Of a DNA stretch of 64,000 bases, positions 14,051-41,845 are shown one piece after another. Source of the stretch: Escherichia coli. Its GTDB lineage: Bacteria; Pseudomonadota; Gammaproteobacteria; Enterobacterales; Enterobacteriaceae. Position 1 is the first letter of the stretch. Each line of letters starts with the position of its first letter. The stretch is from the NCBI RefSeq assembly GCF_044324875.1, contig NZ_CP172185.1, one strand, 5' to 3'. The position numbers and the translations under genes are program-made. The notes under the pieces are model-generated. The model had not been told where the DNA came from, searched no databases, and was given only the letters and a program-made list of their open reading frames with translations.

Positions 14051-14063
14051 AGTGTGCAATAAA

Positions 14064-14090
14064 CAGCCCCGGTCGGGGCTGTTTTTTATT
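14064..14090. terminator. Bidirectional intrinsic terminator between the converging 13664..14050 and 14086..14460 genes
   Basis: cagcccc-ggtc-ggggctg hairpin followed by ttttttatt. Confidence 0.6.
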
Positions 14091-14460: not shown

Positions 14461-14533
14461 TTGCCCCTCCTGCTAAACATCGGTTTATTTTTTAATTTGC
14501 TGCCGGTGATAAAAAACGGCGGGTCGCCCCGCC

Positions 14534-14806
14534 TTAGTATGTTGTCGAGGTTCTCCGCTGAATACGGAGGATCCTGATAACCACTATCTGCCCTCCCTCA
14601 ATCGTGAACCTGACACGGTAATGATTTACCCTGAGTCTGTACTCCCCGCCCGAGTCAGTGAGCTTTTTAATATCCAGATTCTGGAACTTCGGATAGCCAT
14701 AAAGCGCGTTAACTTTCTCGCGTAAGGATTTCTGATCCCTCGCTGGCAAAACCCGTAAATCTTTGATTGCCCGAGGGGTCCACATGATTTCAGTCGTCAT
14801 AAACAC
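14534..14806 (-). CDS. RelE/ParE-superfamily toxin-like protein (about 88-90 aa; start GTG 14806 or ATG 14800)
   Basis: N-terminal ...WTPRAIKDLRVL... and C-terminal YRLRVNHYRVRF...IVVIRI segments resemble RelE/ParE/HigB-type toxins. Confidence 0.6.
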   Translation of the reverse strand: MFMTTEIMWTPRAIKDLRVLPARDQKSLREKVNALYGYPKFQNLDIKKLTDSGGEYRLRVNHYRVRFTIEGGQIVVIRILRIQRRTSTTY

Positions 14807-15076: not shown

Positions 15077-15389
15077 GCGTTTCAGGGGGTAAATAGCATT
15101 CCCTGAACGATGTTGCAGTGACACAACAGAATGGCTGTATTTCTCACGCTGAGCGTGAAAAAGACGTAAGGGCTTTTGATTTGATGGGGTGAAAGATAAG
15201 GCCGTCAAAATCGCACTGAGGCAGCGAGAATATGTCGTCAGAGTTGCGGGGTTGCGTAAGCATCCGCCCGGCGATGATGGCTACAGGGCTGGAGATGTTG
15301 TGAAATTATCTGAAGGAATAACCAGCTTGCAGGAGAACCCGGGCAAAGTCAGAATAGCGGCAGGCATCAACTCAAAAGAGGATAATGTC

Positions 15390-15893
15390 ATGAGCCACTT
15401 TAATGATTTATGCCAGATCAATCGTGAAGCTGAAGAAAAACGCGCTGAGGCAGCTCAAATTTTGCGGGATGAAGCGGCAAGGCTGATTGATTTCTATGAA
15501 GAATGGCTGGGGCTTCCATCCATGTACTGGGAAGACGATGATGGCGACCTGCACCGCTACGTGGAGACAGGCTTGCCATGTAAGACAGCGGCGGATTTTA
15601 GTCCTCTTTCAGTCCACAATATCGCATCTGCACCAGACAATATTTTCCGCATGGCCGTACGAACCTGGGTAAAGTCATCTGACAGCAGCTACCCGGTAAG
15701 CGTGGTTATTGCACTTGAATTATATTCAGTAGATGCGGAACGGGTGTCTCTGAGAGTCCGGGTGGAAGACGATATTTCTGTTCGCGTATTTATCAATAAA
15801 CCCAGCGAAGAAGCCTGGGGCGATGTTGTTATGCACATGAAAAAGCACATCGCTAATCACCTGAAAAAGCGAGCGCCATCAGCACTTCGTTAA
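15390..15893 (+). CDS. Hypothetical protein (167 aa from ATG 15390 with AAGAGG ribosome binding site), orphan gene next to the portal gene
   Basis: ORF 15189..15893 with best start at 15390; acidic, no recognisable motif; preceded by about 580 bp without credible coding potential. Confidence 0.55.
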   Translation: MSHFNDLCQINREAEEKRAEAAQILRDEAARLIDFYEEWLGLPSMYWEDDDGDLHRYVETGLPCKTAADFSPLSVHNIASAPDNIFRMAVRTWVKSSDSSYPVSVVIALELYSVDAERVSLRVRVEDDISVRVFINKPSEEAWGDVVMHMKKHIANHLKKRAPSALR

Positions 15894-17015: not shown

Positions 17016-18766
17016 CAGAACTCCGTAACACTGAAGGGGGCGGCATCATGTTCACCGCCGACAGGTTCGTTGATAACGGCCAGCATGGTGGCCCATGCAA
17101 GATCGCCATGGCTTACGCCTCTTGCGCGATCTGTTTCGTAGGTGATAAATCCGGCCTGCGTTTTTGTTTTGCGTACCGCGTTAAAGGCGCTCACCAGTTC
17201 GCGCTCGCTGCGGTCGTACTCCCACCGCCCGGCGCGCATGAGCTGCAGCATCTTCAGAACCAGCGTGCGCTTTGATGACAGGGTGAAGGTGTAGGGAATG
17301 GCTGCCGGAAAAAAGCGCTTCACAATCTGATACACCGCATCCCCGTGACCGCCGGTTACGTCAATACCGATATGCTCAACGTTATAGCGAAAGGTGAACT
17401 CTTCAATGACCTTCGCCTGCGCCTCAAACTCCAGCCCCTGCACCCGCCGCGTCTCCACGGTGCGAAAACGCCCGCCCGGTACGGCTGGCGGCACCACCAC
17501 GACAACCGCCCCGCTGTCACCGTTCCCGCTACTGCCGTTGGCGTCGTACCCAATCCACACAGGGCGGTTCCCCATCGGACGCGGTGCAAACGGCTTCCAG
17601 TCCGGCCACTCGTCGTATCCGTCAACACCGCAGCCAATCAGGATATTCAGGTTAAATGCCGATTCCCCTTCGCGAGCAAATTCACACATGTAGAGATTGC
17701 GGAACTCGTCTTCAGTGTTATTGCGCCGGATTTTGTCAATGTTGGTTAACGTCCATCCCTGACTGACCACATCTTCCAGCGTCACAATTTGCCGCCAGAT
17801 ATAGTCAGGACAGATAAGGCCGTTATGAAGCGCATTCCAGCTCACATCAAAATGCTGACGTTTATGAGTACGAAGCCCTTCATTCCAGTGATCGCCGTTC
17901 CAGTATGCATACGCCTCATGTGTTTCACTTGATGGCGTGGAAAAATAGGTACACCGCAAACCATCCAGCGTTGCCATAGCAGCAGCCACCTTGCGCAGCT
18001 CTGCGAAACGCCCCGTCCAGAAAAACTCATCAAAATACAGATTCCCTGTGTACGCTTGCGCGGTGGCCGCAGAAGTGCCGAGAAAATGCAGCTCTGCACC
18101 GTTGGAGAGGATGACTTTATCGCCCCCTTTCAGTTCCACATCAACTTCAGATGCAGCCTTCTGAATAATGCTTTTAAACTGGAGCGCCTGACGACGAGAC
18201 GCAGACAAAAAAATCTGGTTACGCTGGTAAGGTTGTGCCACATCGTCACGCAGCGCCATCAGCAGCGCTTCCTGCGCAAAATACCAGGTCGCCCCAATCT
18301 GGCGGGATTTCAGGATCATCCTGTCAGTAATTCCGGCACGCTCACAGGCACCGATAGCATCAAGCCATTTGCGCTGGTGTCCGGCCAGCCTGTCGGTAAT
18401 TTTTTCCCGCAGCGCCGCGATCTGTTCCGGCGTGAAATGATTTTTGCGTTTTTTCGCCCGGCCTTTCTTTCCTGTTGCCGTCTCATCCGGCAGACCGTCA
18501 TGCAGCTTTTTAAGCTGACGGGTCAGCAAATCAATTTCCTTAAAGTCCCCGCCTGTTTTATTCTGTTTTTCCGTGAGCTGAATGAGTCGCGCATCCATGG
18601 ACTGCGTGACACGCTGAACCGGGGGCGTCTCATCCCACTGGTCGCGTTTTTTCCACGAATGGATCGTGTTCTGGTTGATACCCATAAGGCGGCAAATTTC
18701 CGCAACAGGGTAACCCTGCCAGTACAGCTGGCGTGCCCGCTGGCGAACAAATGTATCCTGAATCAT
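17015..18766 (-). CDS. P: Terminase large (ATPase) subunit, P2 gpP family
   Basis: 583 aa; N-terminal HTH-like segment and ATPase-sized body; Q-P pair on the strand opposite to the capsid operon. Confidence 0.85.
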   Translation of the reverse strand: MIQDTFVRQRARQLYWQGYPVAEICRLMGINQNTIHSWKKRDQWDETPPVQRVTQSMDARLIQLTEKQNKTGGDFKEIDLLTRQLKKLHDGLPDETATGKKGRAKKRKNHFTPEQIAALREKITDRLAGHQRKWLDAIGACERAGITDRMILKSRQIGATWYFAQEALLMALRDDVAQPYQRNQIFLSASRRQALQFKSIIQKAASEVDVELKGGDKVILSNGAELHFLGTSAATAQAYTGNLYFDEFFWTGRFAELRKVAAAMATLDGLRCTYFSTPSSETHEAYAYWNGDHWNEGLRTHKRQHFDVSWNALHNGLICPDYIWRQIVTLEDVVSQGWTLTNIDKIRRNNTEDEFRNLYMCEFAREGESAFNLNILIGCGVDGYDEWPDWKPFAPRPMGNRPVWIGYDANGSSGNGDSGAVVVVVPPAVPGGRFRTVETRRVQGLEFEAQAKVIEEFTFRYNVEHIGIDVTGGHGDAVYQIVKRFFPAAIPYTFTLSSKRTLVLKMLQLMRAGRWEYDRSERELVSAFNAVRKTKTQAGFITYETDRARGVSHGDLAWATMLAVINEPVGGEHDAAPFSVTEF

Positions 18767-18920
18767 TTCTCCCCCTCATGTGATTCAGGCAGTTTACTCA
18801 CCCCTTACAGGCCTCCTGCCATGCCCGGTGTTGTCGGCATTCGCTTACAACAAACGCACTTTGTCTGTCCCTGCCCCGTTTTGCCATCATGAGACAAACG
18901 ATCATCACGAGGGCCCGACA

Positions 18921-19757
18921 ATGCCTGAACAGAAAAAAACATCCCGTAAAACATTCCGCGTGGCCGTTTCCGGTCCCACCGCAGACGGTCGCGAAATCAG
19001 CGCCGCAGATTTGCGCGCGGCGGCCAGTAACTTCAACCCTGAGATTTACGGCGCACGCGTGAACGTGGAGCACTGGCTTTCACCGGTTCCGTCCAGTGAA
19101 TTTTCCGCCATGGGTGATGTGACGGCACTGAGCACAGAAGAAATCACCGAAGGTCCGCTGGCCGGTCGTACTGCGCTGTATGCGGAAATCGAACCCACCG
19201 ACCGCATGAAAAATCTGGTCTCCCGGGGTAAGAAAATTTACTCCAGTATTGAGCTGGCACGAAATTTCACCCCTACGGGCACCCCGTATCTTATTGGCCT
19301 TGCCATGACAGACACCCCGGCAAGCATCGGCACGGAGCGTCTTCAGTTCGCCCTGCAGCAGCGCCGTTCGGTCATGACCTTCAATAATCAGCAGACGGAA
19401 GCACCGATGTTCTCTGACGCCATTGAGGCTGAAGTGATCGAACTGACGGAGCGCCGCAGCGAGGAAGGTGCGCAGTGGTTTAACCGCGTGATGAACATGA
19501 TTGGGCGAGGACGCAGGGCTGACGACACCCGGTTCTCCCGCATTCATGACGCCGTTGAGGGGATAGCCTCATCGCATGCCGACCTTCTCGACCGCTTCAG
19601 TGCACTGGAATCGCGCCATCAGGCAGACAGACAGAAAGTCGCCACCCTGTCCACTGAGCTGGCAGAGCTGAAAAACAGACTGCGCGGACTGGACGCTGAT
19701 CAGCAAAGTCGTTTTACGGCAACCGGCGGGCAGTCCAGACAACTGGCTGACTACTGA
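18921..19757 (+). CDS. O: Capsid scaffolding protein, P2 gpO family (278 aa from ATG 18921)
   Basis: Position and size as P2 O; coiled-coil-rich C-terminus; ORF track start 18780 is a 5' over-extension. Confidence 0.8.
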   Translation: MPEQKKTSRKTFRVAVSGPTADGREISAADLRAAASNFNPEIYGARVNVEHWLSPVPSSEFSAMGDVTALSTEEITEGPLAGRTALYAEIEPTDRMKNLVSRGKKIYSSIELARNFTPTGTPYLIGLAMTDTPASIGTERLQFALQQRRSVMTFNNQQTEAPMFSDAIEAEVIELTERRSEEGAQWFNRVMNMIGRGRRADDTRFSRIHDAVEGIASSHADLLDRFSALESRHQADRQKVATLSTELAELKNRLRGLDADQQSRFTATGGQSRQLADY

Positions 19758-29840: not shown

Positions 29841-29883
29841 GCGGGGAAAAGGAACGGGCATTCATAAATAATTCATCATGCAG

Positions 29884-29903
29884 GTGCCGCAAGAATGCGG
29901 CAC
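29884..29903. terminator. Hairpin (gtgccgc-aagaat-gcggcac) between the converging G and U genes
   Basis: 7-bp perfect stem in the 70-bp gap between convergent gene ends. Confidence 0.45.
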
Positions 29904-29910
29904 ATTACCT

Positions 29911-30399
29911 TCACATCAGATCATTTACGCCGCTTACTGTGGTATTCCAGACCGAACTTAACTTCCCTTTCATTCCCGAAAGCATATCAGACACCGGCGA
30001 CGAGGCCATACTCTCCCGCAAATCCTCATCACAGCGTTCCAGACTGACAGTGAACTCAATTTTTTTGGCCTTACCGTGGCGGTCAAGTTCGCTTCGCGTT
30101 GTGCGGACAGCCGTTATCACATACATGCCGTATATCTGCCCCACACCGTCAATCAGCGGCCATGGGCGACCAGTGTAAGCCTGCGTCGTTAAAAGGCTGA
30201 GGGAAACCTCACCGCCGGTAATTTCGGGATAAAGCACACCGGACAACGTGATCTGGTCGTCACCCGCCCCGATATACTGCCAGCTGGCCGAACGATTGAT
30301 GCGTTCATTTTTAACGTGGCGCCAGGTTTTATTATGTTGCAGTTGTTGATGAGGCAGCGTACGCAACTCAAAAACAAACATGCCGTAAATCATCATCAT
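29911..30399 (-). CDS. U: Tail protein, P2 gpU family
   Basis: 162 aa (P2 U about 159 aa); N-terminus MMMIYGMFVFELRTLPHQ... resembles gpU as recalled. Confidence 0.8.
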   Translation of the reverse strand: MMMIYGMFVFELRTLPHQQLQHNKTWRHVKNERINRSASWQYIGAGDDQITLSGVLYPEITGGEVSLSLLTTQAYTGRPWPLIDGVGQIYGMYVITAVRTTRSELDRHGKAKKIEFTVSLERCDEDLRESMASSPVSDMLSGMKGKLSSVWNTTVSGVNDLM

Positions 30400-30410
30400 G
30401 CGAGGTACTC

Positions 30411-33400
30411 CTAATCTCTGTCACGGAAACTACCGACTGTCTGGCGGATACGGCGTTCCATTTCCGCACGGACGGCATCACCCACCATTTTTGCCAGTTC
30501 GCGCGGGTTTTGCGTGTGAACATCATGCAGGTGAATATGCAGTTCGCCAGTTAATCCCCATGGTGCCGGATCACTCTGACGCGGTCGGGGCGATGCGGGG
30601 GATATGGGCTGGCGTACAGCCTCAACCACCGGACGGGATGTTGCCGTTACGACGGGTGTCATTACCGGCGCAATATTGCCGGACACGACCGGTTTAATTA
30701 CCGGGGAGAGCGTCGGTATAACATCGCCAGCCATAACCGGTTTGATCGCTGGCGAAATAACCGGAGCAACAGACTCAGCCATGACGGAACTGACAGGCTG
30801 AGGCGCTCTCACTATGCCAGCATCGATAACCAGCATGAGCTCGCGTACTGCCTCAAGGACAGGACGGGATATTGCCGCCATCACTGGTGTCATTAGCGGG
30901 GAGAACGTCGGCATGACATCGTGAGTCATAACCGGTTTGATCACCGGCGAAACCACTGGCGTAATATTACCGGACAGTACCGGACGGACGACCGGAGGAA
31001 TAACCGGCACATTATTCACGGACACCACCGGCTTCACGACCGGCGACACGTTCGCCGTGGTGGATATCAGCGGCGAAACACTGACAGGCGGTGGCGCTGG
31101 CAGCGGTGGCAACGAAGGCACACTGACCGACGGCACCTGCGGCAGTCTGACAGGTGGCTCACTGACACTACCCGGTAACAGGGAAGCTGCGCGGTTAAAG
31201 CGTTCCTCCTTCCACTCACCACGAACGGCCAGCGCTTCCGGCAGGTTTTTAAAGATAATATCGCCGGGACCAGTGCGTTTTTTCGCCTGTTTCGCCTCAT
31301 CCAGCAGGCCACCGGTGTTATCGACGATTTTATTCAGGCGACGCATGGTGCCGGTATTCTCCCCCGTCAGCGGAGCAGTTGCTGCAGGTGCAGGTACTGG
31401 CGGCTTTTTGTCTTTGTCATTTTGCGGCGGATTAATGACATTAACATCCGCCAGGAGCATGGCGGCTTTCTCGTTCAGCAGCTCCTTCTGCTTCAGCTCT
31501 TCCGCCTTTTTCCGGGCGCGCTCAACCGCCGACGGAATCAGCCCGAGTTTTTCCAGCACCCGGGTTAACGAGTCAACCAGCAGCGTGACCGGACCGGTCA
31601 CCAGATTGCTGATAAACTCCCCGACCTTCTGCCCGAACGTCCGCCCGGCTTCCGTGCACTTGTCCAGCTCATCCTTTGTTGTGCTTACCGGCGCGAACAG
31701 GTCCACGAACCACTGCCACACACGCCCGATTGTCTGCCCGACGTACTCAAATATCGGTCCCAGCGGTGCCACAGCCTCGCGCAGTGGCGTAAGCCCCTGC
31801 CACAGGCCGGACAGATACCCACCCACGACAGCCTTCAGCTGGTCCCAGTGCCGCCAGATAAGCACTGCCGCACCGACCAGTGCCGCCACCACGAGGCCCA
31901 CCGGACTTAACAGAAAACCCAGCGCCCCGCCAAGTGCGCCCACCGCACCACTCACCATTCCCCACAGCGCAGGCAGACCTGACAGTCTGAGCGCCAGCAT
32001 ACCGATACCGCGCCCCAGAGAAAGCAGAGCACCGCCCGGGGAAGTGAACGCAGCCAGCAGACCACCACGCAGCGTACCGAGTAGTCCGCGCACGCCACGA
32101 AGCCGGACCGCAAGCCGTCCCGCACCGGTATCAAGACCGGCAAACAGCACACGCCAGCCGCCAATACCACTCATCGACCCACCGAGTACGCCGCGCAGCT
32201 GCGTCAGTAACGGCAGCGCACGACCGAGGCCGGATGTGCCGGTCAGCAGGGAAAAGCCAAGACGCAGTTTTGCCAGCGGCCCCAGCAACACGCCGGTAGC
32301 CAGTGACAGCGCCCCCGTGGCCGCAACCGCAGCCAGCAGTGCACCACCGGCAATCAGCAGTTGTTTTGTCAGTTCAGGGTGCGCCTGGGCCAGCGCGGTG
32401 ACTTTCGCAATAACCCGGGTGAACGACTGCGTGACAGAACGCAGCGGCCCGTCAACGAGGTCAGCGACACGGATACGCAGCCCTTCCCATGCGCTGTTCA
32501 GTGATTTCAGGTCGCCGTCCAGGTTGTCCGCCATGATTCTGGCGTTTTCTTCCAGTTCGCCGTTCGCTGCCTGAATCTCACGCGTCAGGCGCGGCAGGTT
32601 TTTTTCGCCTGCCTGTTCAACCAGGCTCATCAGGGAGACATACGCCTCCTGCCCGGCAATATCTGAAAAGAACGAGACTTTTGCCGCGTTACCGTATTTA
32701 CGGGTGGCCTGATACAGCTCATACAGGATATCTTCCATCGGGCGCATGTTCCCGTAAGCATCCTGCGTTTCCACGCCCAGCTGTTTCAGCGCCTTTGCTG
32801 CCGCTTTAGGCGGGTTCACAAGGCGGGACAGACTGGAGCGCAGCGCCGTACCAGCATCACTGCCACGTATCCCCATCGACCCAAGCAACCCGGTCATGGC
32901 TGCGGTCTGTTCAAGAGACAGACCGAGTGAGGCGGCGACCGGTCCCGTATATTTCATCGTCTCACCAAGCCCGCGCAGGTCGGTATTGGTGCGGGTGAAC
33001 GTTGCGGCCAGCGTGTCACCCACGCGGTTCATCTGGTCGGCAGACAACCCGAACTGCGTAAGGATATTTGAGCTGATATCGGCCGTCTGACCGAGGTCCA
33101 TGCCGCTGGCCGTTGCCAGATTCAGCACGCCGGGAAGAGCCGCCTGTATCGCCTGCGGCGTGAACCCCGCCATGGCAAGGAACGCCTGACCGCTGGCAGC
33201 ATCACCTGCGGTAAACTGCGTTTCGGAGCCGAGTTTAAGCGCCTGTTCGCGCAGCGCCTTAAACTGCGGACTGTTTTTGTCAATACGGGTCAGCGCCTGG
33301 ACGCGCGACATCTCCTTACCAAAACTGACCGCCGGTTGCAGGAAACGCCCGGCCGCATAGCCACCTGCCGCTGCCGTGCCGACTGCCGTAAATCCACCCG

Positions 33401-33932
33401 CTTTCAGTTTTCCCGCCATCTCCTGAGCGCGGAAATATTGCTGGCGTGCCTGCGTGACGCGTGCCAGAGTCTGCCGTTCACGTTCCAGCTGTTCGTTGTA
33501 TTGCTGTGTTCGCCGTATGGCCTGTTGAATGGTGTTGTCACTGCCGGAAAGCGCAATACCGTGACGCCGCAGCTCACCACCCAGTTCGCGCATTCGCTGA
33601 ACTTCACGCGCACGGACCTCATTGAGACGCTCAAGTTTGAGGCTCAAATCGTTCATCAGCTTTTTCTGTTTGTCAGACAGCACGGTTCCGGCGCGCTGAA
33701 TTTGCTGAAGTGCGCTTAACTGGCGTTGTGCCCGGGCAATGCCGTTTCCGGCCTTGTTTGCAGCCTCGCGGGCGCGATCAAATGAACGGGCGTGGCGTTC
33801 CAGGTTTTTGATCGCACCCTGCGTTCTCTGTATGGAGTCGCCAAGCTGGCCCATCATGCGACGGGCGTTTTCGGTGGGACGGGTCAGCCTGTCAACAGCG
33901 CTGAAGGCGACCCGTATATCAAGCGTTTTCAT
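30411..33932 (-). CDS. T: Tail tape measure protein (gpT-like), 1173 aa from the ATG overlapping the E' stop, with Pro/Val-rich repetitive C-terminus
   Basis: Very long Ala/Gly/Leu-rich ORF following the E/E' chaperone pair; the ORF track start at 33968 is an over-extension. Confidence 0.85.
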   Translation of the reverse strand: MKTLDIRVAFSAVDRLTRPTENARRMMGQLGDSIQRTQGAIKNLERHARSFDRAREAANKAGNGIARAQRQLSALQQIQRAGTVLSDKQKKLMNDLSLKLERLNEVRAREVQRMRELGGELRRHGIALSGSDNTIQQAIRRTQQYNEQLERERQTLARVTQARQQYFRAQEMAGKLKAGGFTAVGTAAAGGYAAGRFLQPAVSFGKEMSRVQALTRIDKNSPQFKALREQALKLGSETQFTAGDAASGQAFLAMAGFTPQAIQAALPGVLNLATASGMDLGQTADISSNILTQFGLSADQMNRVGDTLAATFTRTNTDLRGLGETMKYTGPVAASLGLSLEQTAAMTGLLGSMGIRGSDAGTALRSSLSRLVNPPKAAAKALKQLGVETQDAYGNMRPMEDILYELYQATRKYGNAAKVSFFSDIAGQEAYVSLMSLVEQAGEKNLPRLTREIQAANGELEENARIMADNLDGDLKSLNSAWEGLRIRVADLVDGPLRSVTQSFTRVIAKVTALAQAHPELTKQLLIAGGALLAAVAATGALSLATGVLLGPLAKLRLGFSLLTGTSGLGRALPLLTQLRGVLGGSMSGIGGWRVLFAGLDTGAGRLAVRLRGVRGLLGTLRGGLLAAFTSPGGALLSLGRGIGMLALRLSGLPALWGMVSGAVGALGGALGFLLSPVGLVVAALVGAAVLIWRHWDQLKAVVGGYLSGLWQGLTPLREAVAPLGPIFEYVGQTIGRVWQWFVDLFAPVSTTKDELDKCTEAGRTFGQKVGEFISNLVTGPVTLLVDSLTRVLEKLGLIPSAVERARKKAEELKQKELLNEKAAMLLADVNVINPPQNDKDKKPPVPAPAATAPLTGENTGTMRRLNKIVDNTGGLLDEAKQAKKRTGPGDIIFKNLPEALAVRGEWKEERFNRAASLLPGSVSEPPVRLPQVPSVSVPSLPPLPAPPPVSVSPLISTTANVSPVVKPVVSVNNVPVIPPVVRPVLSGNITPVVSPVIKPVMTHDVMPTFSPLMTPVMAAISRPVLEAVRELMLVIDAGIVRAPQPVSSVMAESVAPVISPAIKPVMAGDVIPTLSPVIKPVVSGNIAPVMTPVVTATSRPVVEAVRQPISPASPRPRQSDPAPWGLTGELHIHLHDVHTQNPRELAKMVGDAVRAEMERRIRQTVGSFRDRD

Positions 33933-34445
33933 GCTCTGCGTTCCCGCTGCGAAGGGCCGCCCGCTCACGCCAGGCGACCACCTCGCCGGGATCCATCAGG
34001 AAGATTTCAGCGGGAGACCAGTTGAAAATAACGGCGATATCCGCCACAAAGTCTTCAATATGCTCAAAGGGCACGACGGTTATCAGCCTGCCGTCGCCGC
34101 CACGCTCTTCCCGCCAGAGTCCTGACCGGCCAAAAAATTAACCGCCACCCCGCACAGCTGAATAAAATCAGCGGACCCCATGCGCTTAAGCATAACCTCG
34201 TCCAGTCGCGGCGAAGTGACGCGCGGGAGTAACTCAAACATCGCGTCCGTTTTCATGTTCAGCACGTCAAGCAGTGACAGCCCGCGCAGTGAACCGGCCT
34301 GCTGTACAGCAGGCGTGATTTCCACATACGTGATTTTTTTGTTACCGAGCACAAGGGGTGTTTTCAGTGTCACGCCGCGCTCACTGGTCACGTCAGCCAC
34401 ATCAGCACCGTCAGTAACAGGGGCAACAACCGGATTTTCTTTCAT
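33919..34445 (-). CDS. Tail assembly chaperone frameshift product E+E' (programmed -1 frameshift at 34131..34137)
   Basis: Manual translation in the -1 frame after T_TTT_TTG gives an extended product ending at TGA 33919..33921, overlapping the tape measure start. Confidence 0.7.
34083..34445 (-). CDS. E: Tail assembly chaperone, P2 gpE family (zero-frame product)
   Basis: 120-aa ORF upstream of the tape measure gene; carries the slippery heptamer near its 3' end. Confidence 0.8.
   Translation of the reverse strand: MKENPVVAPVTDGADVADVTSERGVTLKTPLVLGNKKITYVEITPAVQQAGSLRGLSLLDVLNMKTDAMFELLPRVTSPRLDEVMLKRMGSADFIQLCGVAVNFLAGQDSGGKSVAATAG
34131..34137 (-). promoter_or_regulatory. Programmed -1 ribosomal frameshift heptamer T TTT TTG (E to E')
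   Basis: Heptamer in frame as (AA)T TTT TTG in the last part of E; conserved mechanism in tail chaperone genes. Confidence 0.7.
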
Positions 34446-34494
34446 GAATAAAACCTCAAATCAGGGGCGACGCCACGCGCCGCCGTGGAAAACA

Positions 34495-35013
34495 TTAACC
34501 ACCAAGACCAATCGCCGAGCGCACGCGGTCCGGGAAGACGCTTTTGCCGTCCTTGCGTTCGATGTGGTTCAGTAAATCAATCTCCAGCACCGGACGGTCG
34601 TTAATGCTGAGTTTGTAGTAGGTACTTTTGACCGCATAGGTGTGAGACGTGACCTCACCCTGTTTGGCCTCCCCGGTATCAATTTCCGTCACGCGACCGC
34701 GAAGCTCAATCTCGTACAGGTCACTCTGTTCTTCATCGTTGTAGTACTCACCGACAAAGCGCAGCAGCGTACCGTCAATCGTGCCGCCGTACTTGAGGAA
34801 CAGTTCGCGGGTCGGCCCGCCCATGGTGAAACTCGCATCCAGCGCGCCGTCATCCAGGCCAAGGTCGATATTTACTGCACCGGCCATACCACCACCGCGA
34901 TAGGCTTCCGTTTTACGGGTCAGTTTGGGGGGCGTGAAGCCGGTCACCCTGCCAATCTGGTTCACCCCGTCAGTAAACAGCGTGAACACCCTGAGATTTT
35001 TTGGTACGGCCAT
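34495..35013 (-). CDS. FII: Tail tube protein, P2 gpFII family
   Basis: 172 aa between the sheath and E genes. Confidence 0.8.
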   Translation of the reverse strand: MAVPKNLRVFTLFTDGVNQIGRVTGFTPPKLTRKTEAYRGGGMAGAVNIDLGLDDGALDASFTMGGPTRELFLKYGGTIDGTLLRFVGEYYNDEEQSDLYEIELRGRVTEIDTGEAKQGEVTSHTYAVKSTYYKLSINDRPVLEIDLLNHIERKDGKSVFPDRVRSAIGLGG

Positions 35014-36296
35014 TAAGCACCTCCAAGCGTCGCAAATGCAGGACCAAAGAATTCATCAGTAAACGTCTGGTAAAGTTCCATATCCTCAAGCGGCGGAACG
35101 GGCGTGTACTTGTAGCGGATACGCACGCGTCCCTGACGAAGTTCCGTGGTGCTGTTATCCACCACGTCATACCAGCACTCCGCACCAACGAGACGTCCTG
35201 ACGTAACCAGCGCATCCAGTTTTGCGCGAATTGCGCTTAACACGTCTTTCACATTAGCAGGGGTCAGCGGGGCATCAATCGTTTCAAACTGCGCTTCCGC
35301 AACAGAATCAGCCAGCACCTGAGCGGTTCGCGTGTACACCTCAAAGATATACGCCTTCGTTTCCGGCGTACGGTTGCCCCAGAAGCGGAAACCGTTACGG
35401 CGAATGATGGTGGTGATTTCCTTGTTGTTGAGATTGTTGGCATCGCTGTCTTCGGACTGAAGGGACCAGAACACCCGGCTGGAAATACCCAGCACATTTC
35501 TTACCGGCACGTTGGACAGCGATTTATGCCAGCCCTGTTCGTGGTCAATACGTGCACGTAAACCGCAGGCGTACGCCGCAGCCGGGAAGACCTCATTAGC
35601 GCCGGATTTCGGGTTATAGGCGATGAAGTCAGGCCAGAGCAGCATAAGTTCGCGCTCGTTAAATCTGGCGCGGTAGCTGATTGCATCAGCGGGCTTCTTG
35701 CAGTTGTGACAGCCCGCGTAGACAAATGCGCGAAGTTTTTCTGCAATTACACACAGGGATTTTGTGACAGCTTCAGTATCCAGTCCGGGAGCTGCGATGA
35801 TGCGCGGACGGTAACCGATGGCATCATCCTGTTCAGCTATCAGAAGTGCATACATACCGGTATAATTACCGTCGCCATCCGTGCCACCAATGACATACTG
35901 GTCCTGCGTTTTGTGTGGGTATACAGGATGTGCATCTTCAGACTCATCAATACCAAAAAATGCCCTGTCTTCAGGATCCAGATGACCGAATGATGTAACT
36001 CCTGTATCCGGGGCGCCCTGAGAACTGGCATCAGGAACGCGCACCACAATCACCTTCGTGCTCACCTGGTCGGCGACAGCCTTAAGCGATTTGTAAAGCG
36101 TCCCCTTTGTGCCGGCCTTACCCAGCACATCACTGACGCGGGTCAGCAGTGTGGGTTTGTTCAGCGGGAACAGAGTTTCATCCGCGTCATCTGCCGTAGC
36201 CACAATACCAATAACACTGGAATCCACATCATTAATGGCGGTGGCAAGGCCGGTACTTTCCCTTACGCGCGCACCATGAAAGCGTGTTTCACTCAT
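35013..36296 (-). CDS. FI: Tail sheath protein, P2 gpFI family (427 aa from ATG 36296)
   Basis: Motifs collinear with P2 FI as recalled (LNKP, KGTLY, EQGWHK, GFRFWGNRT, NYTRTAQV, YTPVPPLE); the ORF track start at 36443 is an over-extension. Confidence 0.88.
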   Translation of the reverse strand: MSETRFHGARVRESTGLATAINDVDSSVIGIVATADDADETLFPLNKPTLLTRVSDVLGKAGTKGTLYKSLKAVADQVSTKVIVVRVPDASSQGAPDTGVTSFGHLDPEDRAFFGIDESEDAHPVYPHKTQDQYVIGGTDGDGNYTGMYALLIAEQDDAIGYRPRIIAAPGLDTEAVTKSLCVIAEKLRAFVYAGCHNCKKPADAISYRARFNERELMLLWPDFIAYNPKSGANEVFPAAAYACGLRARIDHEQGWHKSLSNVPVRNVLGISSRVFWSLQSEDSDANNLNNKEITTIIRRNGFRFWGNRTPETKAYIFEVYTRTAQVLADSVAEAQFETIDAPLTPANVKDVLSAIRAKLDALVTSGRLVGAECWYDVVDNSTTELRQGRVRIRYKYTPVPPLEDMELYQTFTDEFFGPAFATLGGA

Positions 36297-36369
36297 ATGT
36301 TTCACCCTTGTCTGGCTGGTTGATTTTGCGTAATCATTACCCACACACGCGGTAATCTCACCCCTTTGA

Positions 36370-36393
36370 TGTTGTCTCCTGACAGCGACAACA
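36370..36393. promoter_or_regulatory. Perfect dyad TGTTGTC-N10-GACAACA containing TGT-N12-ACA, candidate Ogr-dependent late promoter element shared by divergent FI and D
   Basis: Read directly; fits the TGT-N12-ACA dyad characteristic of P2 late promoters; lies in the 160-bp FI/D divergent region. Confidence 0.5.
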
Positions 36394-36457
36394 AAACAGC
36401 CATTCAACGCCGCTACGGTGCATGAAACCATTACAGAACGCACCAGGAGAGAACACC

Positions 36458-37549
36458 ATGAAAGAGCTGTCAGTTACCGTTCCGTCACCGGATATCGACA
36501 TCACCATCAACAACAACACACTGGCAAACCTCACAGAGCGACTCATGACGCTGACCCTGACGGATAACCGGGCCTTTGAGGCAGACCGCGTCACCCTCAC
36601 CCTTGACGATACGGACGGGCAGTTACAGTTGCCACCACGTGGCGCACGCCTGAGAGTGATGATTGGCTGGCGCGGGGAGGCGCTGGTTAACAAGGGTGTC
36701 TACATCGTTGATGAAGTGACGTGGGAAGGCCCGCCGGACAAACTGACCATCACCGCCAGCAGCGCCGATTTTCGCGAAGAGTTCAACGTGAAGCGTGAAG
36801 TCTCCTGGCACGACGTGACGGTAAAACAGGTTGTGTCAGCCATCGCGCACCGCTACGGCCTGAAAGCACAGATAAGCGATATCCTCATGGATATCGAAAT
36901 TGACCACGCAGACCAGACCGAAGAGAGTGATATATCCTTCCTGACCCGCATGGCTGAAATGCTGGGTGCGATTGCCACCGTAAAAAACGGCAGCCTGTTA
37001 TTCATTCTGCCGGGTGGCGGAACCGGGCCGGACGGAAAAGCCCTGCCTTCGTTCGCCATTACCCGCAGCAGCGGCGACAGTCACCGCTTTCGCATTGCTG
37101 ACCGTGATGCGTATACGGGGGTCCGGGCGCACTGGCTCGATCTGAAGTTCGGGCAAAAGAAAAAAGTGAACGTGAAGCGACGCAGGGAAGCCGGGAAACA
37201 GAAACAGGAGAAGAGCAGCAGCCGGGAAGGTGATTACATGGAAGGCGCGGAAGGTAACGTCTACGTTCTGCGCAGGACTTACCAGAATGAAGAAACCGCA
37301 CGACGTGCAGCAGCTGCAAAGTGGCAGGAACTACAGCGGGGCGCGGCATCATTCTCCATCACGCTGGCGCGCGGTCGTGCCGACCTGTACCCTGAAATGC
37401 ACGGCAGGGTAACAGGTTTTAAAAGCGAGGTGGACAATCAGGACTGGATTATTGCCAGGGTGGAGCACAGCATAGATGAAAGCGGCTTCACCACACAACT
37501 GGAGCTGGAAGCGAAAATCCCCGAATGGATAGCAGATTCAGGCGGATAA
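36458..37549 (+). CDS. D: Tail protein D (gpD-like), 363 aa from ATG 36458
   Basis: Size and position before ogr as P2 D; AGGAGA ribosome binding site upstream of ATG 36458. Confidence 0.8.
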   Translation: MKELSVTVPSPDIDITINNNTLANLTERLMTLTLTDNRAFEADRVTLTLDDTDGQLQLPPRGARLRVMIGWRGEALVNKGVYIVDEVTWEGPPDKLTITASSADFREEFNVKREVSWHDVTVKQVVSAIAHRYGLKAQISDILMDIEIDHADQTEESDISFLTRMAEMLGAIATVKNGSLLFILPGGGTGPDGKALPSFAITRSSGDSHRFRIADRDAYTGVRAHWLDLKFGQKKKVNVKRRREAGKQKQEKSSSREGDYMEGAEGNVYVLRRTYQNEETARRAAAAKWQELQRGAASFSITLARGRADLYPEMHGRVTGFKSEVDNQDWIIARVEHSIDESGFTTQLELEAKIPEWIADSGG

Positions 37550-37592
37550 AATTAAAATGAGCCATCTCCACTCAGCCAGATAAGGAGAAGCC

Positions 37593-37844
37593 ATGTTCCG
37601 TTGTCCCCTGTGCGGTGCATCCGCACGTATCCGCACCAGTCGCAATGAAAATGATTCAGGCACAGTTCGCCTGAAGTACTACCAGTGCAATAACCTCGAA
37701 TGCGGGATCGGCTTTACCACACTGGAGGGTTTTAACAAATTCACATCAAAACGCGCCCCGTCGCCGCAGGGTACAGAGCGGATACCGTGGGAAGATTTTC
37801 CGGGATCTCACAGGGGGAATGCTCAGATGAATCTTGATATTTAA
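37593..37844 (+). CDS. ogr: Zinc-finger late gene activator, Ogr/Delta family
   Basis: 83 aa with CPLC...C-x4-C zinc-finger spacing and N-terminus MFRCPLCG resembling P2 Ogr (MFHCPLC...). Confidence 0.88.
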   Translation: MFRCPLCGASARIRTSRNENDSGTVRLKYYQCNNLECGIGFTTLEGFNKFTSKRAPSPQGTERIPWEDFPGSHRGNAQMNLDI

Positions 37845-37962
37845 GAACAATAATCAGGTTGAGAGGACATCATAAGGCAAGTAGATTAACGGCAGATACT
37901 TTCCCGCAACCACGGGCAAGTATTTAATTATCCATGATGAAATATGACCTAAATTGTTTTTT

Positions 37963-37988
37963 GCCCGCCGGAAAGCGGGCATTTTTTT
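37963..37988 (+). terminator. Intrinsic terminator 1 of the ogr-attR array (gcccgc-cggaaa-gcgggc plus T8)
   Basis: Hairpin and T-run read directly. Confidence 0.75.
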
Positions 37989-38202
37989 ATTCTTTTGTGG
38001 TTATGGGGTCATCAGGAACCACGTGCAGATTATATTTTTGTTTTTTTGGCGTTCCTCCGGCAGCAACGAGTTCATCAATAAGACACTGACACGCCTGAAC
38101 ATCCCGGGCATGTCTTAGTTTCACCTTTATTGATTTAACCTTATCCTCACCGGAGGAGAAATGCAGTTCAATCTCAATATCGTTTCTTCGGAACAATCTC
38201 AT
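37987..38202 (-). CDS. Hypothetical small protein (71 aa) between ogr and attR
   Basis: ORF on the minus strand; no recognisable motif. Confidence 0.4.
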   Translation of the reverse strand: MRLFRRNDIEIELHFSSGEDKVKSIKVKLRHARDVQACQCLIDELVAAGGTPKKQKYNLHVVPDDPITTKE

Positions 38203-38429
38203 ACGCCCCCCTGAATATATCAGAAATGCTAGTATCGAAAAATGAGAAAACAGTTAGACAGGAGAAACATATTAACACAAATCATTTATACCTATAGATG
38301 AAATTATAATTTCATTCATGAATATGATAGATAACTATATTGTGAACAAAATGAAAAATGGCTAAATTAAAAATGGGCATGGAGGAATGCCTCGTAATCA
38401 GTAATACATGATCCATACTTCCTTGTTTT

Positions 38430-38455
38430 GCCCGCCGGAAAGCGGGCATTTTTTT
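38430..38455 (+). terminator. Intrinsic terminator 2 of the array (identical hairpin gcccgc-cggaaa-gcgggc plus T8)
   Basis: Identical stem-loop to terminator 1. Confidence 0.75.
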
Positions 38456-38631
38456 GGCGGTTACCATCGCCTCACCTTCCTGGTTCACACAAAGCAACCC
38501 TGATTTTCCATGAAAACTTCAGGGTTGAGCCAAAAGCACAAAGACAGTAGATTAACCAAGGGTACCCGCCACCTGCCAACAGGAACGGTATCCAGTACGT
38601 ATTAATGACTGACAATTCACATTGCTGTTTT

Positions 38632-38657
38632 GCCCGCCAGAAGGTGGGCATTTTTTT
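38632..38657 (+). terminator. Intrinsic terminator 3 of the array
   Basis: gcccgcc-agaa-ggtgggc hairpin plus T7. Confidence 0.7.
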
Positions 38658-38834
38658 GGCAGTTATCATGGACGCACCTTCATGACACATATTAAGCAGA
38701 CCTGATTTTTCCATGAAAAATTCATGGTTGAGACAAAAGCACAAAAACAGTAGATTAACCACGGGTGCCTGCCACCTGACAACAGGAAGGGGTGTCCATT
38801 ATCCATGATATACAAACGAAAAGTCTTGTCTTTT

Positions 38835-38861
38835 GCCCGCCGTTGCGCGGGCTTTTTTTTT
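38835..38861 (+). terminator. Intrinsic terminator 4 of the array
   Basis: gcccgc-cgttgc-gcgggc hairpin plus T9. Confidence 0.7.
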
Positions 38862-39340: not shown

Positions 39341-41845
39341 ATGTCACAAACTATCGACCTGACCCTGGACGGCCTGTCCTGCGGTCACTGCGTTAAACGC
39401 GTGAAAGAAAGTCTCGAACAGCGCCCGGATGTTGAGCAGGCGGATGTGTCTGTCACTGAAGCGCACGTTACCGGGACTGCCAGTGCAGAACAGCTGATCG
39501 AAACCATCAAACAAGCGGGTTATGACGCATCTGTAAGCCACCCAAAGGCTAAACCGCTGGCGGAGTCATCAATCCCGTCGGAAGCACTGACAGCGGTTTC
39601 TGAGGCGCTTCCGGCAGCGACCGCCGATGACGATGACAGCCAGCAGTTGCTGCTGAGCGGCATGAGCTGCGCCAGCTGTGTCACCCGCGTACAAAATGCG
39701 TTGCAAAGCGTACCGGGCGTCACTCAGGCACGGGTAAACCTGGCGGAGCGTACTGCGCTGGTGATGGGCAGTGCCTCCCCACAAGATTTAGTGCAGGCGG
39801 TGGAAAAAGCGGGCTACGGCGCGGAAGCGATTGAAGATGACGCTAAACGCCGCGAGCGCCAGCAGGAAACCGCCGTCGCTACGATGAAGCGCTTCCGCTG
39901 GCAGGCAATTGTCGCACTGGCGGTGGGTATCCCGGTGATGGTCTGGGGGATGATCGGCGATAACATGATGGTCACCGCTGACAACCGCAGCTTGTGGTTA
40001 GTTATCGGCCTGATAACCCTGGCAGTGATGGTTTTCGCCGGCGGCCATTTTTACCGTAGTGCATGGAAAAGCCTGCTGAACGGTGCAGCGACGATGGATA
40101 CGCTGGTGGCGCTGGGTACTGGCGTGGCGTGGCTCTATTCGATGAGCGTCAACCTGTGGCCGCAGTGGTTCCCGATGGAAGCGCGACATCTTTATTACGA
40201 AGCCAGCGCGATGATTATCGGTCTGATCAATCTCGGTCATATGCTGGAAGCGCGCGCACGTCAGCGTTCTTCAAAGGCGCTGGAGAAATTACTCGATTTA
40301 ACCCCACCGACGGCGCGCCTGGTCACCGACGAAGGTGAAAAAAGCGTGCCGCTGGCGGAAGTGCAGCCAGGTATGTTGCTGCGCCTGACGACCGGCGATC
40401 GCGTGCCGGTAGATGGCGAGATTACCCAGGGCGAAGCATGGCTGGATGAAGCGATGCTGACGGGCGAACCAATCCCGCAGCAAAAAGGCGAAGGCGATAG
40501 CGTCCATGCCGGGACAGTGGTACAGGACGGCAGTGTGCTGTTTCGTGCCAGTGCGGTCGGCAGCCATACTACGCTGTCACGAATCATTCGCATGGTGCGC
40601 CAGGCCCAGAGCAGCAAGCCTGAAATCGGCCAACTGGCGGATAAAATCTCCGCTGTGTTTGTGCCGGTGGTGGTAGTCATTGCGCTGATCAGTGCGGCAA
40701 TCTGGTATTTCTTTGGTCCGGCACCGCAGATTGTCTATACCCTGGTGATTGCCACCACGGTGCTGATTATCGCCTGTCCGTGTGCGCTGGGACTGGCGAC
40801 GCCGATGTCGATTATTTCGGGCGTCGGGCGGGCGGCTGAGTTTGGTGTGCTGGTGCGGGACGCCGACGCGCTGCAACGCGCCAGTACGCTCGACACCGTG
40901 GTGTTCGATAAAACCGGGACGCTGACCGAAGGGAAGCCGCAGGTTGTCGCAGTAAAAACATTTGCTGATGTTGATGAAGCGCAAGCATTGCGTCTGGCGG
41001 CGGCGCTGGAGCAAGGTTCCAGCCACCCGCTGGCACGGGCGATCCTCGATAAAGCAGGTGATATGCAGCTACCGCAGGTCAACGGTTTCCGCACATTGCG
41101 CGGGCTGGGTGTGAGCGGTGAAGCTGAAGGTCATGCGGTATTGCTGGGCAATCAGGCGCTGTTAAATGACCAGCAAGTTGATACTAAAGCGATTGAGGCA
41201 GATATTTCAGCTCAGGCATCGCAAGGTGCAACGCCTGTGCTGCTGGCGGTTGACGGGAAAGCGGTAGCCCTGCTGGCTGTACGCGATCCGTTGCGTAGTG
41301 ATAGCGTGGCGGCGCTGCAACGCCTGCATAAAGCGGGATATCGTCTGGTGATGTTGACCGGGGATAACCCAACCACCGCCAATGCGATCGCCAAAGAAGC
41401 AGGGATTGATGAGGTGATAGCCGGCGTGCTGCCGGACGGTAAAGCCGAAGCGATCAAACGTCTTCAAAGTGAAGGACGTCAGGTGGCAATGGTGGGCGAC
41501 GGCATTAACGATGCGCCAGCGCTGGCTCAGGCGGATGTCGGTATTGCGATGGGTGGCGGCAGTGATGTTGCCATTGAAACCGCGGCGATTACCCTGATGC
41601 GCCATAGCCTGATGGGTGTTGCAGATGCGCTCGCGATTTCCCGCGCAACGCTGCGCAATATGAAGCAGAACCTGCTCGGTGCGTTTATCTACAACAGCAT
41701 TGGTATTCCGGTCGCCGCCGGTATTTTGTGGCCGTTCACTGGAACACTGCTTAACCCGGTGGTTGCCGGAGCGGCAATGGCGCTCTCGTCGATTACCGTA
41801 GTGAGTAACGCCAACCGGTTACTGCGGTTTAAACCGAAAGAGTGA
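39341..41845 (+). CDS. copA: Copper-exporting P-type ATPase
   Basis: 834 aa; two N-terminal GxxCxxC metal-binding motifs, CPC, DKTGT and GDGINDAP motifs. Confidence 0.97.

What the first reader, a model, noticed from the sequence alone, without database searches (positions are those of the whole stretch)
36370..36393. Symmetric Ogr-type dyad between divergent FI and D
TGTTGTC-N10-GACAACA embeds the TGT-N12-ACA motif of P2 late promoters and is perfectly symmetric, so a single activator site could serve both the FI-to-U operon (minus) and D (plus). That would explain how D stays late-expressed despite the block orientation above.
Basis: partly seen in the sequence, partly recalled or inferred. 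Interest (0 to 1): 0.35.

Follow-up and report, generated by a model that had tools for sequence, protein, structure and literature searches.

The report
Shared two-way late promoter switch
A short symmetric DNA site between two back-to-back tail genes of a P2-like prophage in E. coli is very probably one docking site for the phage's late-gene activator Ogr that turns on both genes, which repeats an arrangement already annotated elsewhere in phage P2, so it is tidy but not surprising.

Summary
TGTTGTC-N10-GACAACA lies at 36370-36393, between tail sheath gene FI (minus strand, ATG 36296) and D (plus strand, ATG 36458), in a P88-like (Xuanwuvirus-type) P2-family prophage next to copA.

TGT-N12-ACA alone occurs at chance frequency. 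The full 14-base pattern, with up to 2 mismatches, occurs only twice. Both copies sit centrally in the prophage's two divergent late-gene gaps, P/O and FI/D.

All 61 distinct FI-D gaps from relatives, across at least three Peduoviridae genera, keep three things:
- T(G/C)T-N12-ACAAC, with a freely varying spacer.
- An xAxxAT hexamer starting 44 bp from the site centre on the FI side.
- A TGn-xAxxxT extended -10 starting 44-45 bp from the centre on the D side.

These are the offsets of the P2 PP, PO and PF -10 regions, whose start sites are mapped. The P2 GenBank record annotates one activator site for the divergent pO and pP promoters, 55.5 bp from each start.

It is not shown by experiment. 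The perfect symmetry is lineage-specific; most relatives have cGTTCTc on the FI side. ogr follows D and keeps its own conserved -10. This is a new instance of a known mechanism, of low to moderate interest.

The parts
36370..36393 (.). Perfect dyad TGTTGTC-N10-GACAACA, centre 36381.5; proposed Ogr binding site shared by PF and PD
   Evidence: Read directly. The specific pattern is rare. Its core is conserved in all relatives.
36373..36392 (+). Conserved core T(G/C)T-N12-ACAAC. T36373, T36375 and ACAAC 36388-36392 are invariant in relatives; the spacer varies freely.
   Evidence: Alignment of 59 distinct gaps plus two phage records.
36333..36338 (-). Predicted PF -10 hexamer AATGAT (minus strand), starting at base 44 from the dyad centre (43.5 bp)
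   Evidence: xAxxAT at this offset in 61 of 61 distinct relatives. Same offset as P2 PO and PP.
36356..36361 (-). Weak -35-like GTGAGA (4 of 6 matches), 17 bp upstream of the PF -10
   Evidence: Read from sequence. GTGAG is kept in most but not all relatives.
36326..36326 (-). Predicted FI-operon transcription start (about 55.5 bp from the dyad centre; roughly 30-nt leader)
   Evidence: Inferred from the -10 position and the P2 geometry. Not measured.
29911..36296 (-). FI, FII, E/E', T, U tail block, inverted relative to P2; FI is 35013-36296
   Evidence: ORFs and the PGAP annotation of a 99% identical prophage; Pfam sheath domains.
36423..36431 (+). Predicted PD extended -10: TG (36423-24), one base, then AACCAT (36426-31), starting at base 45 from the dyad centre (44.5 bp)
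   Evidence: TG, A2 and T6 are invariant in 61 of 61 distinct relatives, with the hexamer starting at base 44 or 45. Same design as this phage's PO. The conserved (A/G)TG is not a start codon: it runs into a stop or is out of frame in several relatives (read).
36437..36438 (+). Predicted D transcription start (about 55.5-56.5 bp from the dyad centre; roughly 21-nt leader with AGGAGA at 36445-36450)
   Evidence: Inferred. Not measured.
36458..37549 (+). Gene D (tail/baseplate hub protein)
   Evidence: Pfam PF05954; PGAP start in strain LH50-c; 79% amino-acid identity to P88 D.
37553..37558 (+). TAAAAT, a candidate -10 of an ogr-own promoter overlapping the end of D
   Evidence: TA(A/G/C)AAT is conserved about 30 nt upstream of ogr in all relatives, including those with an insert between D and ogr.
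37593..37844 (+). ogr homologue (83 aa, C4 zinc finger), 43 bp downstream of D
   Evidence: Pfam PF04606, E 4.9e-14; 42% identity to P2 Ogr; follows D in 77 of 83 loci.
37962..37991 (+). Terminator-like hairpin with a T run, downstream of ogr
18829..18852 (.). Sister site TGTTGTC-N10-TTACAACA in the P/O divergent gap, centre 18840.5 (P ATG 18766, O ATG 18921)
   Evidence: P88 has TCT-N12-ACAAC at the same place.
18882..18890 (+). Predicted PO extended -10: TG, one base, then CATCAT (hexamer starts at base 45 from the centre)
   Evidence: P88 is identical in design.
18791..18796 (-). Predicted PP -10 TAAACT (starts at base 45 from the centre)

Best explanation
The dyad is the binding site of the prophage's own Ogr-type zinc-finger activator. 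It sits about 55 bp upstream of two divergent, activator-dependent sigma-70 promoters.

- PF (minus strand): -10 AATGAT at 36338-36333, predicted start near 36326. It drives FI-FII-E/E'-T-U.
- PD (plus strand): TGn-AACCAT at 36423-36431, predicted start near 36437. It drives D and, by read-through, ogr.

Bound Ogr would recruit RNA polymerase on either side through the alpha C-terminal domain, as established for P2 Ogr. This is the arrangement annotated for the divergent PP and PO promoters of P2. It is repeated in this prophage's own P/O gap (18829-18852).

The late regulon of this clade therefore appears to run from two bidirectional sites. ogr has its own conserved -10 (37553-37558) to start the circuit, and PD read-through would then reinforce ogr expression late.

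Shown here: the sequence, its rarity, the geometry, the conservation, and the presence of an Ogr homologue. Inferred: Ogr binding, the two start sites, Ogr dependence of either promoter, and the feedback.
For: - The dyad is present and its specific sequence is rare. The only other near-copy is in the P/O gap.
- An Ogr/Delta-family gene lies just downstream.
- Neither gap holds a sigma-70 consensus promoter.
- The P2 record annotates one activator site (3057-3087) for pO and pP, with starts at 3016 (minus) and 3127 (plus), each 55.5 bp from the TGT-N12-CCA centre.
- Oriented alignment puts the -10 hexamers at bases 44-49 or 45-50 from the site centre in P2 PO, PP and PF and in the window's and P88's PO, PP, PF and PD.
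- All 80 IMG/VR relatives of D have FI divergent just upstream. So do phages of the genera Xuanwuvirus, Reipivirus and Novemvirus.
- In 61 of 61 distinct gaps, T[GC]T-N12-ACAAC, the FI-side xAxxAT (starting at base 44) and the D-side TGn-xAxxxT (starting at base 44 or 45) are all kept, while the spacer varies.
- TGTTGT...ACAACA motifs upstream of late operons are reported for Ralstonia phages RSA1 and RSY1 (PMC5694545). In Smp131 the PP' and PO' promoters are assigned to the same 18-bp dyad (PMC3931495).
- P88 and PhiSM, which have this layout, are functional phages (PMC6456863).
Against: - There are no transcript, start-site or binding data for this phage or any close relative.
- The D-side hexamer is poor (AACCAT, 3 of 6 matches). 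With its TG motif it could in principle work without an activator.
- The FI-side half of the site is degenerate in most relatives (TCT rather than TGT), so strict symmetry is not what selection maintains.
- The conserved half GACAACAAAA could owe part of its invariance to something other than Ogr, for example an alpha-CTD/UP-like A tract.
- I could not retrieve the primary P2 footprinting papers. The P2 precedent rests on the GenBank annotation and my own knowledge of that literature.
Confidence: 0.75

Rival explanations
1. The site is an ordinary one-way PF activator site for the FI operon only. D, and with it ogr, is transcribed from an Ogr-independent extended -10 promoter, at an early or constitutive low level. 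The dyad's position relative to D would then be incidental.
For: - Read from FI, the site in most relatives looks like a classical P2 PF site: a strong distal TTGTTGTC half and a weak proximal AGAAC half.
- The D-side promoter has a TG extended -10, a type that can work without a -35 or an activator.
- ogr must be expressed before Ogr exists.
Against: - The D-side -10 keeps a fixed 43.5-44.5 bp distance from the site centre in 61 of 61 distinct sequences, although the DNA between them diverges.
- This phage's PO has the same design (ACAACAAA, about 30 bp, then TGn-xAxxAT), and in P2 the O operon is activator-dependent (own knowledge).
- The P2 PP promoter uses the shared site in the same 'reversed' orientation.
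- ogr has its own conserved near-consensus -10, so D's promoter is not needed to start the circuit.
- The hexamer AACCAT/GACCAT is weak.
Confidence: 0.17
2. The dyad is the operator of a different DNA-binding protein (a phage repressor, Cox-type protein or host regulator), or it is a chance palindrome.
For: Perfect 7-N10-7 inverted repeats of any sequence occur 15 times in the window. TGT-N12-ACA occurs at chance frequency.
Against: - The half-site sequence matches the P2 late-promoter sites (TGTTGT in PO/PP and PV, TTGTG in PF).
- The only other near-copy is in the P/O late gap.
- The bipartite core is invariant across genera while the spacer varies.
- The element encodes an Ogr homologue.
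Confidence: 0.04
3. The dyad acts as a hairpin in RNA or DNA (terminator, attenuator or processing site), or it is a scar or crossover site of the inversion that flipped the FI-U block.
For: - The 46-nt stretch folds at -9 kcal/mol, z = -2.0.
- A weak terminator-like pattern was flagged on the minus strand at 36414-36395.
Against: - The flanking genes diverge, so nothing needs terminating here.
- No T run follows the stem on either strand.
- The site lies upstream of both predicted starts.
- In relatives the arms are not complementary (cGTTCTc against GACAACA), so no hairpin is conserved.
- No k-mer of 9 or more bases is shared, direct or inverted, with the other end of the block at the G/U junction.
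- The inverted layout is ancient and clade-wide.
Confidence: 0.02

Closest known systems
Phage P2 PP/PO divergent late promoters with one shared Ogr/delta binding site (GenBank AF063097, features 3016, 3057-3087, 3127)
   Same: One partial dyad (TGT-N12-CCA) lies midway between divergent late operons. It is 55.5 bp from each mapped start, with -10 hexamers at bases 44-49 from the centre. There is no good -35, and the activator is an Ogr-family zinc-finger protein.
   Different: In P2 this serves P versus O. Here the same design is also used at a gene junction that does not exist in P2 (FI versus D), because the FI-U block is inverted. The site here is a perfect 7+7 dyad, and PD and PO add a TG extended -10.
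Phage P2 PF promoter (FI-FII-E-T-U-D operon)
   Same: It controls the same tail genes. Its TGT-N12-CCA is centred about 56.5-58.5 bp upstream of the mapped start, with the strong TTGT half distal and GAAAAT at bases 45-50.
   Different: In P2, D is the last gene of the PF operon and ogr is reached by read-through from PF. Here D is split off and needs its own promoter on the other strand.
Predicted late-promoter motifs of other P2-like phages: TGTTGT-(X)13-ACAACA in Ralstonia phages RSA1 and RSY1 (PMC5694545), and PP'/PO' of Stenotrophomonas phage Smp131 (PMC3931495)
   Same: Extended TGTTGT/ACAACA dyads lie upstream of late operons. In Smp131 the divergent P and O promoters are assigned to the same dyad coordinates.
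   Different: Those reports are also sequence-only predictions. They describe the P/O junction and one-way V- and F-type promoters, not an FI/D bidirectional pair.
Class I activation from a site shared by divergent promoters (for example CRP near -61.5; general E. coli knowledge, not tested here)
   Same: A symmetric dimer site upstream of the -35 region contacts the alpha C-terminal domain. Because the site is symmetric it can serve promoters on both sides.
   Different: The activator family and the site are different, and the distance is -55.5.

Membership tests
P2-type Ogr/B/delta-dependent late promoter | Partial dyad TGT-N12-ACA upstream of the promoter | tested here: met
   TGT(36373)-N12-ACA(36390) lies inside a perfect TGTTGTC-N10-GACAACA. 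T[GC]T-N12-ACAAC is present in 61 of 61 distinct relatives.
P2-type Ogr/B/delta-dependent late promoter | Dyad centred about 55 bp upstream of the transcription start | not testable with these tools
   No start-site data exist. As a proxy, the -10-like hexamers begin 43.5 bp (FI) and 44.5 bp (D) from the centre, the same range as in P2 PO, PP and PF with mapped starts.
P2-type Ogr/B/delta-dependent late promoter | Recognisable -10 but no consensus -35 (activator-dependent sigma-70 promoter) | tested here: met
   The scan found no sigma-70 consensus promoter in 36200-36560 or 18700-18990. The hexamers are AATGAT and TGn-AACCAT.
P2-type Ogr/B/delta-dependent late promoter | The same element encodes a cognate Ogr/Delta C4 zinc-finger activator | tested here: met
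   The 37593-37844 product hits PF04606 at E 4.9e-14 and is 42% identical to P2 Ogr over 53 residues.
P2-type Ogr/B/delta-dependent late promoter | The promoter drives morphogenetic (late) operons | tested here: met
   The flanking genes are tail sheath FI and tail protein D.
P2-type Ogr/B/delta-dependent late promoter | Transcription requires Ogr and the RNA polymerase alpha C-terminal domain (rpoA109-sensitive), and the activator footprints the dyad | not testable with these tools
   This needs reporter assays, footprinting and an rpoA109 host. The link between P2 Ogr and rpoA109 is cited in PMC11434276.
Bidirectional shared activator site of the P2 PP/PO type | A single site midway between divergent late genes, with promoter elements mirror-symmetric about it | tested here: met
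   There is only one dyad in the 161-bp gap. The -10 elements begin 43.5 and 44.5 bp from the centre on the two sides, so the predicted starts are about 111-112 bp apart, against 111 bp in P2.
Bidirectional shared activator site of the P2 PP/PO type | Both flanking promoters are conserved together with the site in relatives | tested here: met
   61 of 61 distinct gaps keep the site and both -10 elements in register, across Xuanwuvirus, Reipivirus and Novemvirus.
Bidirectional shared activator site of the P2 PP/PO type | Both promoters are actually activated from the one site | not testable with these tools
   This needs two-way reporter fusions with site mutations.

The most novel reading that the evidence does not exclude
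In the P88-like clade (Xuanwuvirus, Reipivirus, Novemvirus) the whole late regulon is wired from only two bidirectional Ogr sites, P/O and FI/D. No V-type internal site exists. D and ogr form an Ogr-activated operon, so the activator amplifies its own synthesis. In this E. coli lineage the FI/D site has been made perfectly symmetric by two substitutions, which changes the balance between the two directions.
Probability: 0.4. Interest if true: 0.35.

Novelty: new member of a known kind. Interest (0 to 1): 0.27.

Why it matters
If confirmed, this shows how a P2-family phage keeps gene D under late control after the FI-U tail block was inverted. It reuses the PF activator site in the opposite direction and adds a -10 at the mirror position, which is the solution P2 already uses for P and O.

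It gives a compact, testable wiring diagram for a widespread group of enterobacterial prophages that includes the functional phages P88 and PhiSM: two sites, four promoters and an ogr feedback.

It also gives a natural series of variant sites, from perfect to degenerate half-sites with a free spacer, for studying how a symmetric class-I-type activator shares itself between divergent promoters. It does not change any general principle.

Tried and rejected
- Megablast of 36000-37900 against the phage collection found nothing. The relatives only appeared with a protein search.
- The first translation of D used the wrong frame. The start is 36458.
- I tried to read Julien & Calendar 1995 (PMC177091), but it is not held.
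- Searches for Xuanwuvirus or P88 late-promoter literature found nothing relevant.
- Inversion scar: no shared k-mer of 9 or more bases between the G/U junction and the FI/D gap. Rejected.
- RNA hairpin or terminator: the fold is weak, not conserved, and has no T run. Rejected.
- Conserved (A/G)TG on the D side as an alternative start codon: it runs into a stop or is out of frame in several relatives. Rejected.
- Internal V-type late site in the O-to-G block or the FI-to-U block: no bipartite motif with a correctly spaced -10 was found. A degenerate site cannot be excluded.
- Third dyad at 15111-15128: no correctly spaced -10 on either side. Left open.
- Terminator between the convergent G and U genes: only a hairpin without a T run.

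Full report
**What is there**

The window is E. coli chromosome with a P2-family prophage inserted beside copA (39341-41845). The PGAP annotation of a 99% identical prophage in strain LH50-c, together with the ORF lists, gives this layout:
- Q and P on the minus strand (P ATG 18766).
- O through G on the plus strand (O ATG 18921, to 29840).
- U, T, E', E, FII and FI on the minus strand (29911-36296; FI ATG 36296).
- D (36458-37549) and an ogr homologue (37593-37844) on the plus strand.

Pfam confirms the tail sheath domains, Phage_GPD and the Ogr_Delta zinc finger. The Ogr homologue is 42% identical to P2 Ogr across the zinc-finger region. Compared with P2, where FI-FII-E-T-U-D is one operon, the FI-U block is inverted and D is left divergent from FI.

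**The observation**

Positions 36370-36393 read TGTTGTCTCCTGACAGCGACAACA. This is a perfect 7+7 dyad with a 10-bp spacer and contains TGT-N12-ACA at 36373-36390.

Generic motifs are not informative:
- TGT-N12-ACA occurs 12 times against 14 expected.
- Perfect 7-N10-7 inverted repeats of any sequence occur 15 times, against about 4 in shuffles.

The specific pattern with up to two mismatches occurs only twice, against 0.22 expected. The second copy, TGTTGTCGGCATTCGCTTACAACA at 18829-18852, lies in the other divergent late-gene gap, between P and O. The two sites are placed alike:
- The FI/D site centre is 85.5 bp from the FI ATG and 76.5 bp from the D ATG.
- The P/O site centre is 74.5 bp from the P ATG and 80.5 bp from the O ATG.

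**Precedent in P2**

The P2 GenBank record (AF063097) annotates a single 'activator binding site; pO, pP promoters' at 3057-3087. The transcription starts are at 3016 (minus) and 3127 (plus). The TGT-N12-CCA there is centred at 3071.5, which is 55.5 bp from each start. One Ogr site serving two divergent late promoters is therefore already part of P2's annotation. The PF site (TGT-N12-CCA, centre 17569.5) lies 56.5-58.5 bp from its mapped start.

**Geometry**

I oriented each promoter from the site centre towards its gene. The first three rows are P2 promoters with mapped starts.

| Promoter | -10 element | Bases from the site centre |
|---|---|---|
| P2 PO | GAAACT | 44-49 |
| P2 PP | TAGCCT | 44-49 |
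| P2 PF | GAAAAT | 45-50 |
| Window PF | AATGAT (36338-36333, minus strand) | 44-49 |
| Window PD | TG-a-AACCAT (36423-36431) | 45-50 |
| Window PO | TG-c-CATCAT (18882-18890) | 45-50 |
| Window PP | TAAACT (18796-18791) | 45-50 |

P88 shows the same four promoters. The predicted starts are near 36326 (minus) and 36437 (plus), about 111-112 bp apart, against 111 bp in P2. Neither gap contains a sigma-70 consensus promoter, which fits activator dependence. PF also has a weak -35-like GTGAGA 17 bp upstream of its -10.

**Conservation**

All 80 IMG/VR loci retrieved with the D protein carry FI divergent immediately upstream of D. So do phages P88 (Xuanwuvirus), ST16-OXA48phi5.4 (Reipivirus) and phiT5282H (Novemvirus). 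The layout is therefore clade-wide. P88 and PhiSM are functional phages (PMC6456863).

Across 61 distinct FI-D gaps:
- Every one has T[GC]T-N12-ACAAC. The spacer varies freely, for example CCCGCCACGGCG, TGCCGCCCGGCG, CCCGATCCGGCG and GCAATACACAT.
- Every one has xAxxAT starting at base 44 on the FI side.
- Every one has TGn-xAxxxT starting at base 44 (55 sequences) or base 45 (6 sequences) on the D side.

In the eight most diverse sequences, the invariant columns between the site and D's ribosome-binding site are exactly the TG, the A at hexamer position 2 and the T at position 6. The conserved (A/G)TG is not a start codon, because it runs into a stop or is out of frame in several relatives (read).

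This is the footprint expected of a bipartite protein site with two promoters locked in register to it.

**What the comparison corrects**

The perfect symmetry is specific to this lineage. Only the window, strain LH50-c and two IMG/VR loci have TGTTGTC on the FI side; most relatives have cGTTCTc. The invariant half is GACAACAAAA, on the D side.

Read from FI, the site looks like a classical P2 PF site, with a strong distal TTGTTGTC half and a weak proximal half. Read from D, it is used as P2 uses the shared site for PP. The P/O and FI/D sites have the same polarity: the ACAACAAA(A/C) half plus a TG extended -10 faces O and D, and a G-rich stretch faces P and FI.

**How the circuit would start**

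An ogr homologue follows D on the same strand in 77 of 83 loci, either about 45 bp downstream or after a 1-2.5 kb insert. A near-consensus -10, TA(A/G/C)AAT, is conserved about 30 nt upstream of ogr in all of them, including those with inserts. In the window it is TAAAAT at 37553-37558. ogr therefore probably has its own promoter, as in P2, and PD read-through would add late ogr transcript. A terminator-like hairpin follows ogr at 37962-37981.

I found no V-type internal site with a correctly spaced -10 in the O-to-G block or the FI-to-U block. A degenerate site cannot be excluded.

**Rivals**

- One-way PF site with an Ogr-independent D promoter. This remains possible (about 0.17). It fits poorly with the fixed register of the D-side -10, the identical design of PO, and ogr having its own promoter.
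- Another regulator's operator, or a chance palindrome. This is unlikely given the match to the P2 half-sites, the sister site in P/O and the Ogr gene.
- A hairpin, terminator or inversion scar. This is rejected: the genes diverge, there is no T run, the arms are not complementary in relatives, and no repeat is shared with the other end of the block.

**Comparison with what is known, and novelty**

The mechanism is that of P2 late promoters, and specifically of the shared PP/PO site. Similar TGTTGT...ACAACA motifs have been predicted in Ralstonia phages RSA1 and RSY1 (PMC5694545). In Smp131 a single dyad was assigned to both PP' and PO' (PMC3931495).

I found no description of an FI/D bidirectional pair or of P88-type late promoters in the searchable literature. 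Most primary P2 papers are not held, however. I file this as a new member of a known kind.

The role of the alpha C-terminal domain (rpoA109) is from the literature (PMC11434276, and own knowledge). It is not tested here.

**Verdict**

Confidence is about 0.9 that this is an Ogr-type site driving FI, and about 0.75 that it also drives D. Interest is low to moderate.

Noticed in passing
window 18829-18852: Sister dyad TGTTGTCGGCATTCGCTTACAACA in the middle of the P/O divergent gap. It has correctly spaced -10 elements on both sides (TAAACT at 18796-18791 on the minus strand; TG-c-CATCAT at 18882-18890). It is the direct counterpart of P2's shared pO/pP activator site.
   Followed up: yes
window 15111-15128: A third TGTTG-N8-CAACA dyad (TGTTGCAGTGACACAACA) lies about 60 bp upstream of ORF 15189-15893, which has no Pfam hit, in the cargo region between the replication genes and portal gene Q. 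No xAxxxT hexamer sits at the late-promoter offset on either side. It could be chance or a late-expressed cargo-gene (moron) promoter.
   Followed up: partly
window 37553-37558 (and the aligned position in L003-L083): A near-consensus -10, TA(A/G/C)AAT, is conserved about 30 nt upstream of ogr in all relatives, even where 1-2.5 kb is inserted between D and ogr. This suggests a portable promoter of ogr's own.
   Followed up: partly
window 37857-38860: Three to four copies of a roughly 200-bp unit lie between ogr and copA. Each ends in the hairpin TTTTGCCCGCCGGAAAGCGGGCATTTTTTT. The first copy is the terminator after ogr. They may be stacked attachment-site or terminator remnants of earlier integrations.
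   Followed up: partly
window 30411-33968: The tape-measure ORF is 1185 aa, against about 935 aa in P88, and has a long Pro/Val-rich repetitive C-terminal part. In the 99% identical prophage of strain LH50-c, PGAP annotates this gene as an incomplete pseudogene with an unannotated gap.
   Followed up: no
L006 about 2900-2930, compared with window 18841-18856: The FI/D site of the IMG/VR relative L006 shares a 16-nt identity (TTCGCTTACAACAAAC) with the window's P/O site. This hints at exchange or convergence between the two shared sites.
   Followed up: no
window 36371-36386: The dyad's spacer holds a nested complement, GTTGTC-TCCT-GACAGC, which gives a -9 kcal/mol hairpin. It is lineage-specific and not conserved.
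   Followed up: partly
window 29882-29902: Hairpin GTGCCGCAAGAATGCGGCAC lies between the convergent G and U genes and has no T run. It is the only candidate barrier against plus-strand read-through into the antisense of the FI-U block.
   Followed up: no
window 13293-14806: The prophage cargo region holds small paired ORFs. One pair looks like a toxin-antitoxin pair by its sequence: 14534-14806 (minus strand) is RelE/ParE-like by eye, and 14086-14460 (minus strand) is HTH-like. Neither was checked against any family library.
   Followed up: no
L085 1106-2332 and L084 1132-2430: The deposited FI start codons in phiT5282H and ST16-OXA48phi5.4 appear to be set too far upstream. They run into or across the conserved activator site, whereas the homologous MSET-type start lies about 85 bp from the site centre.
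   Followed up: partly
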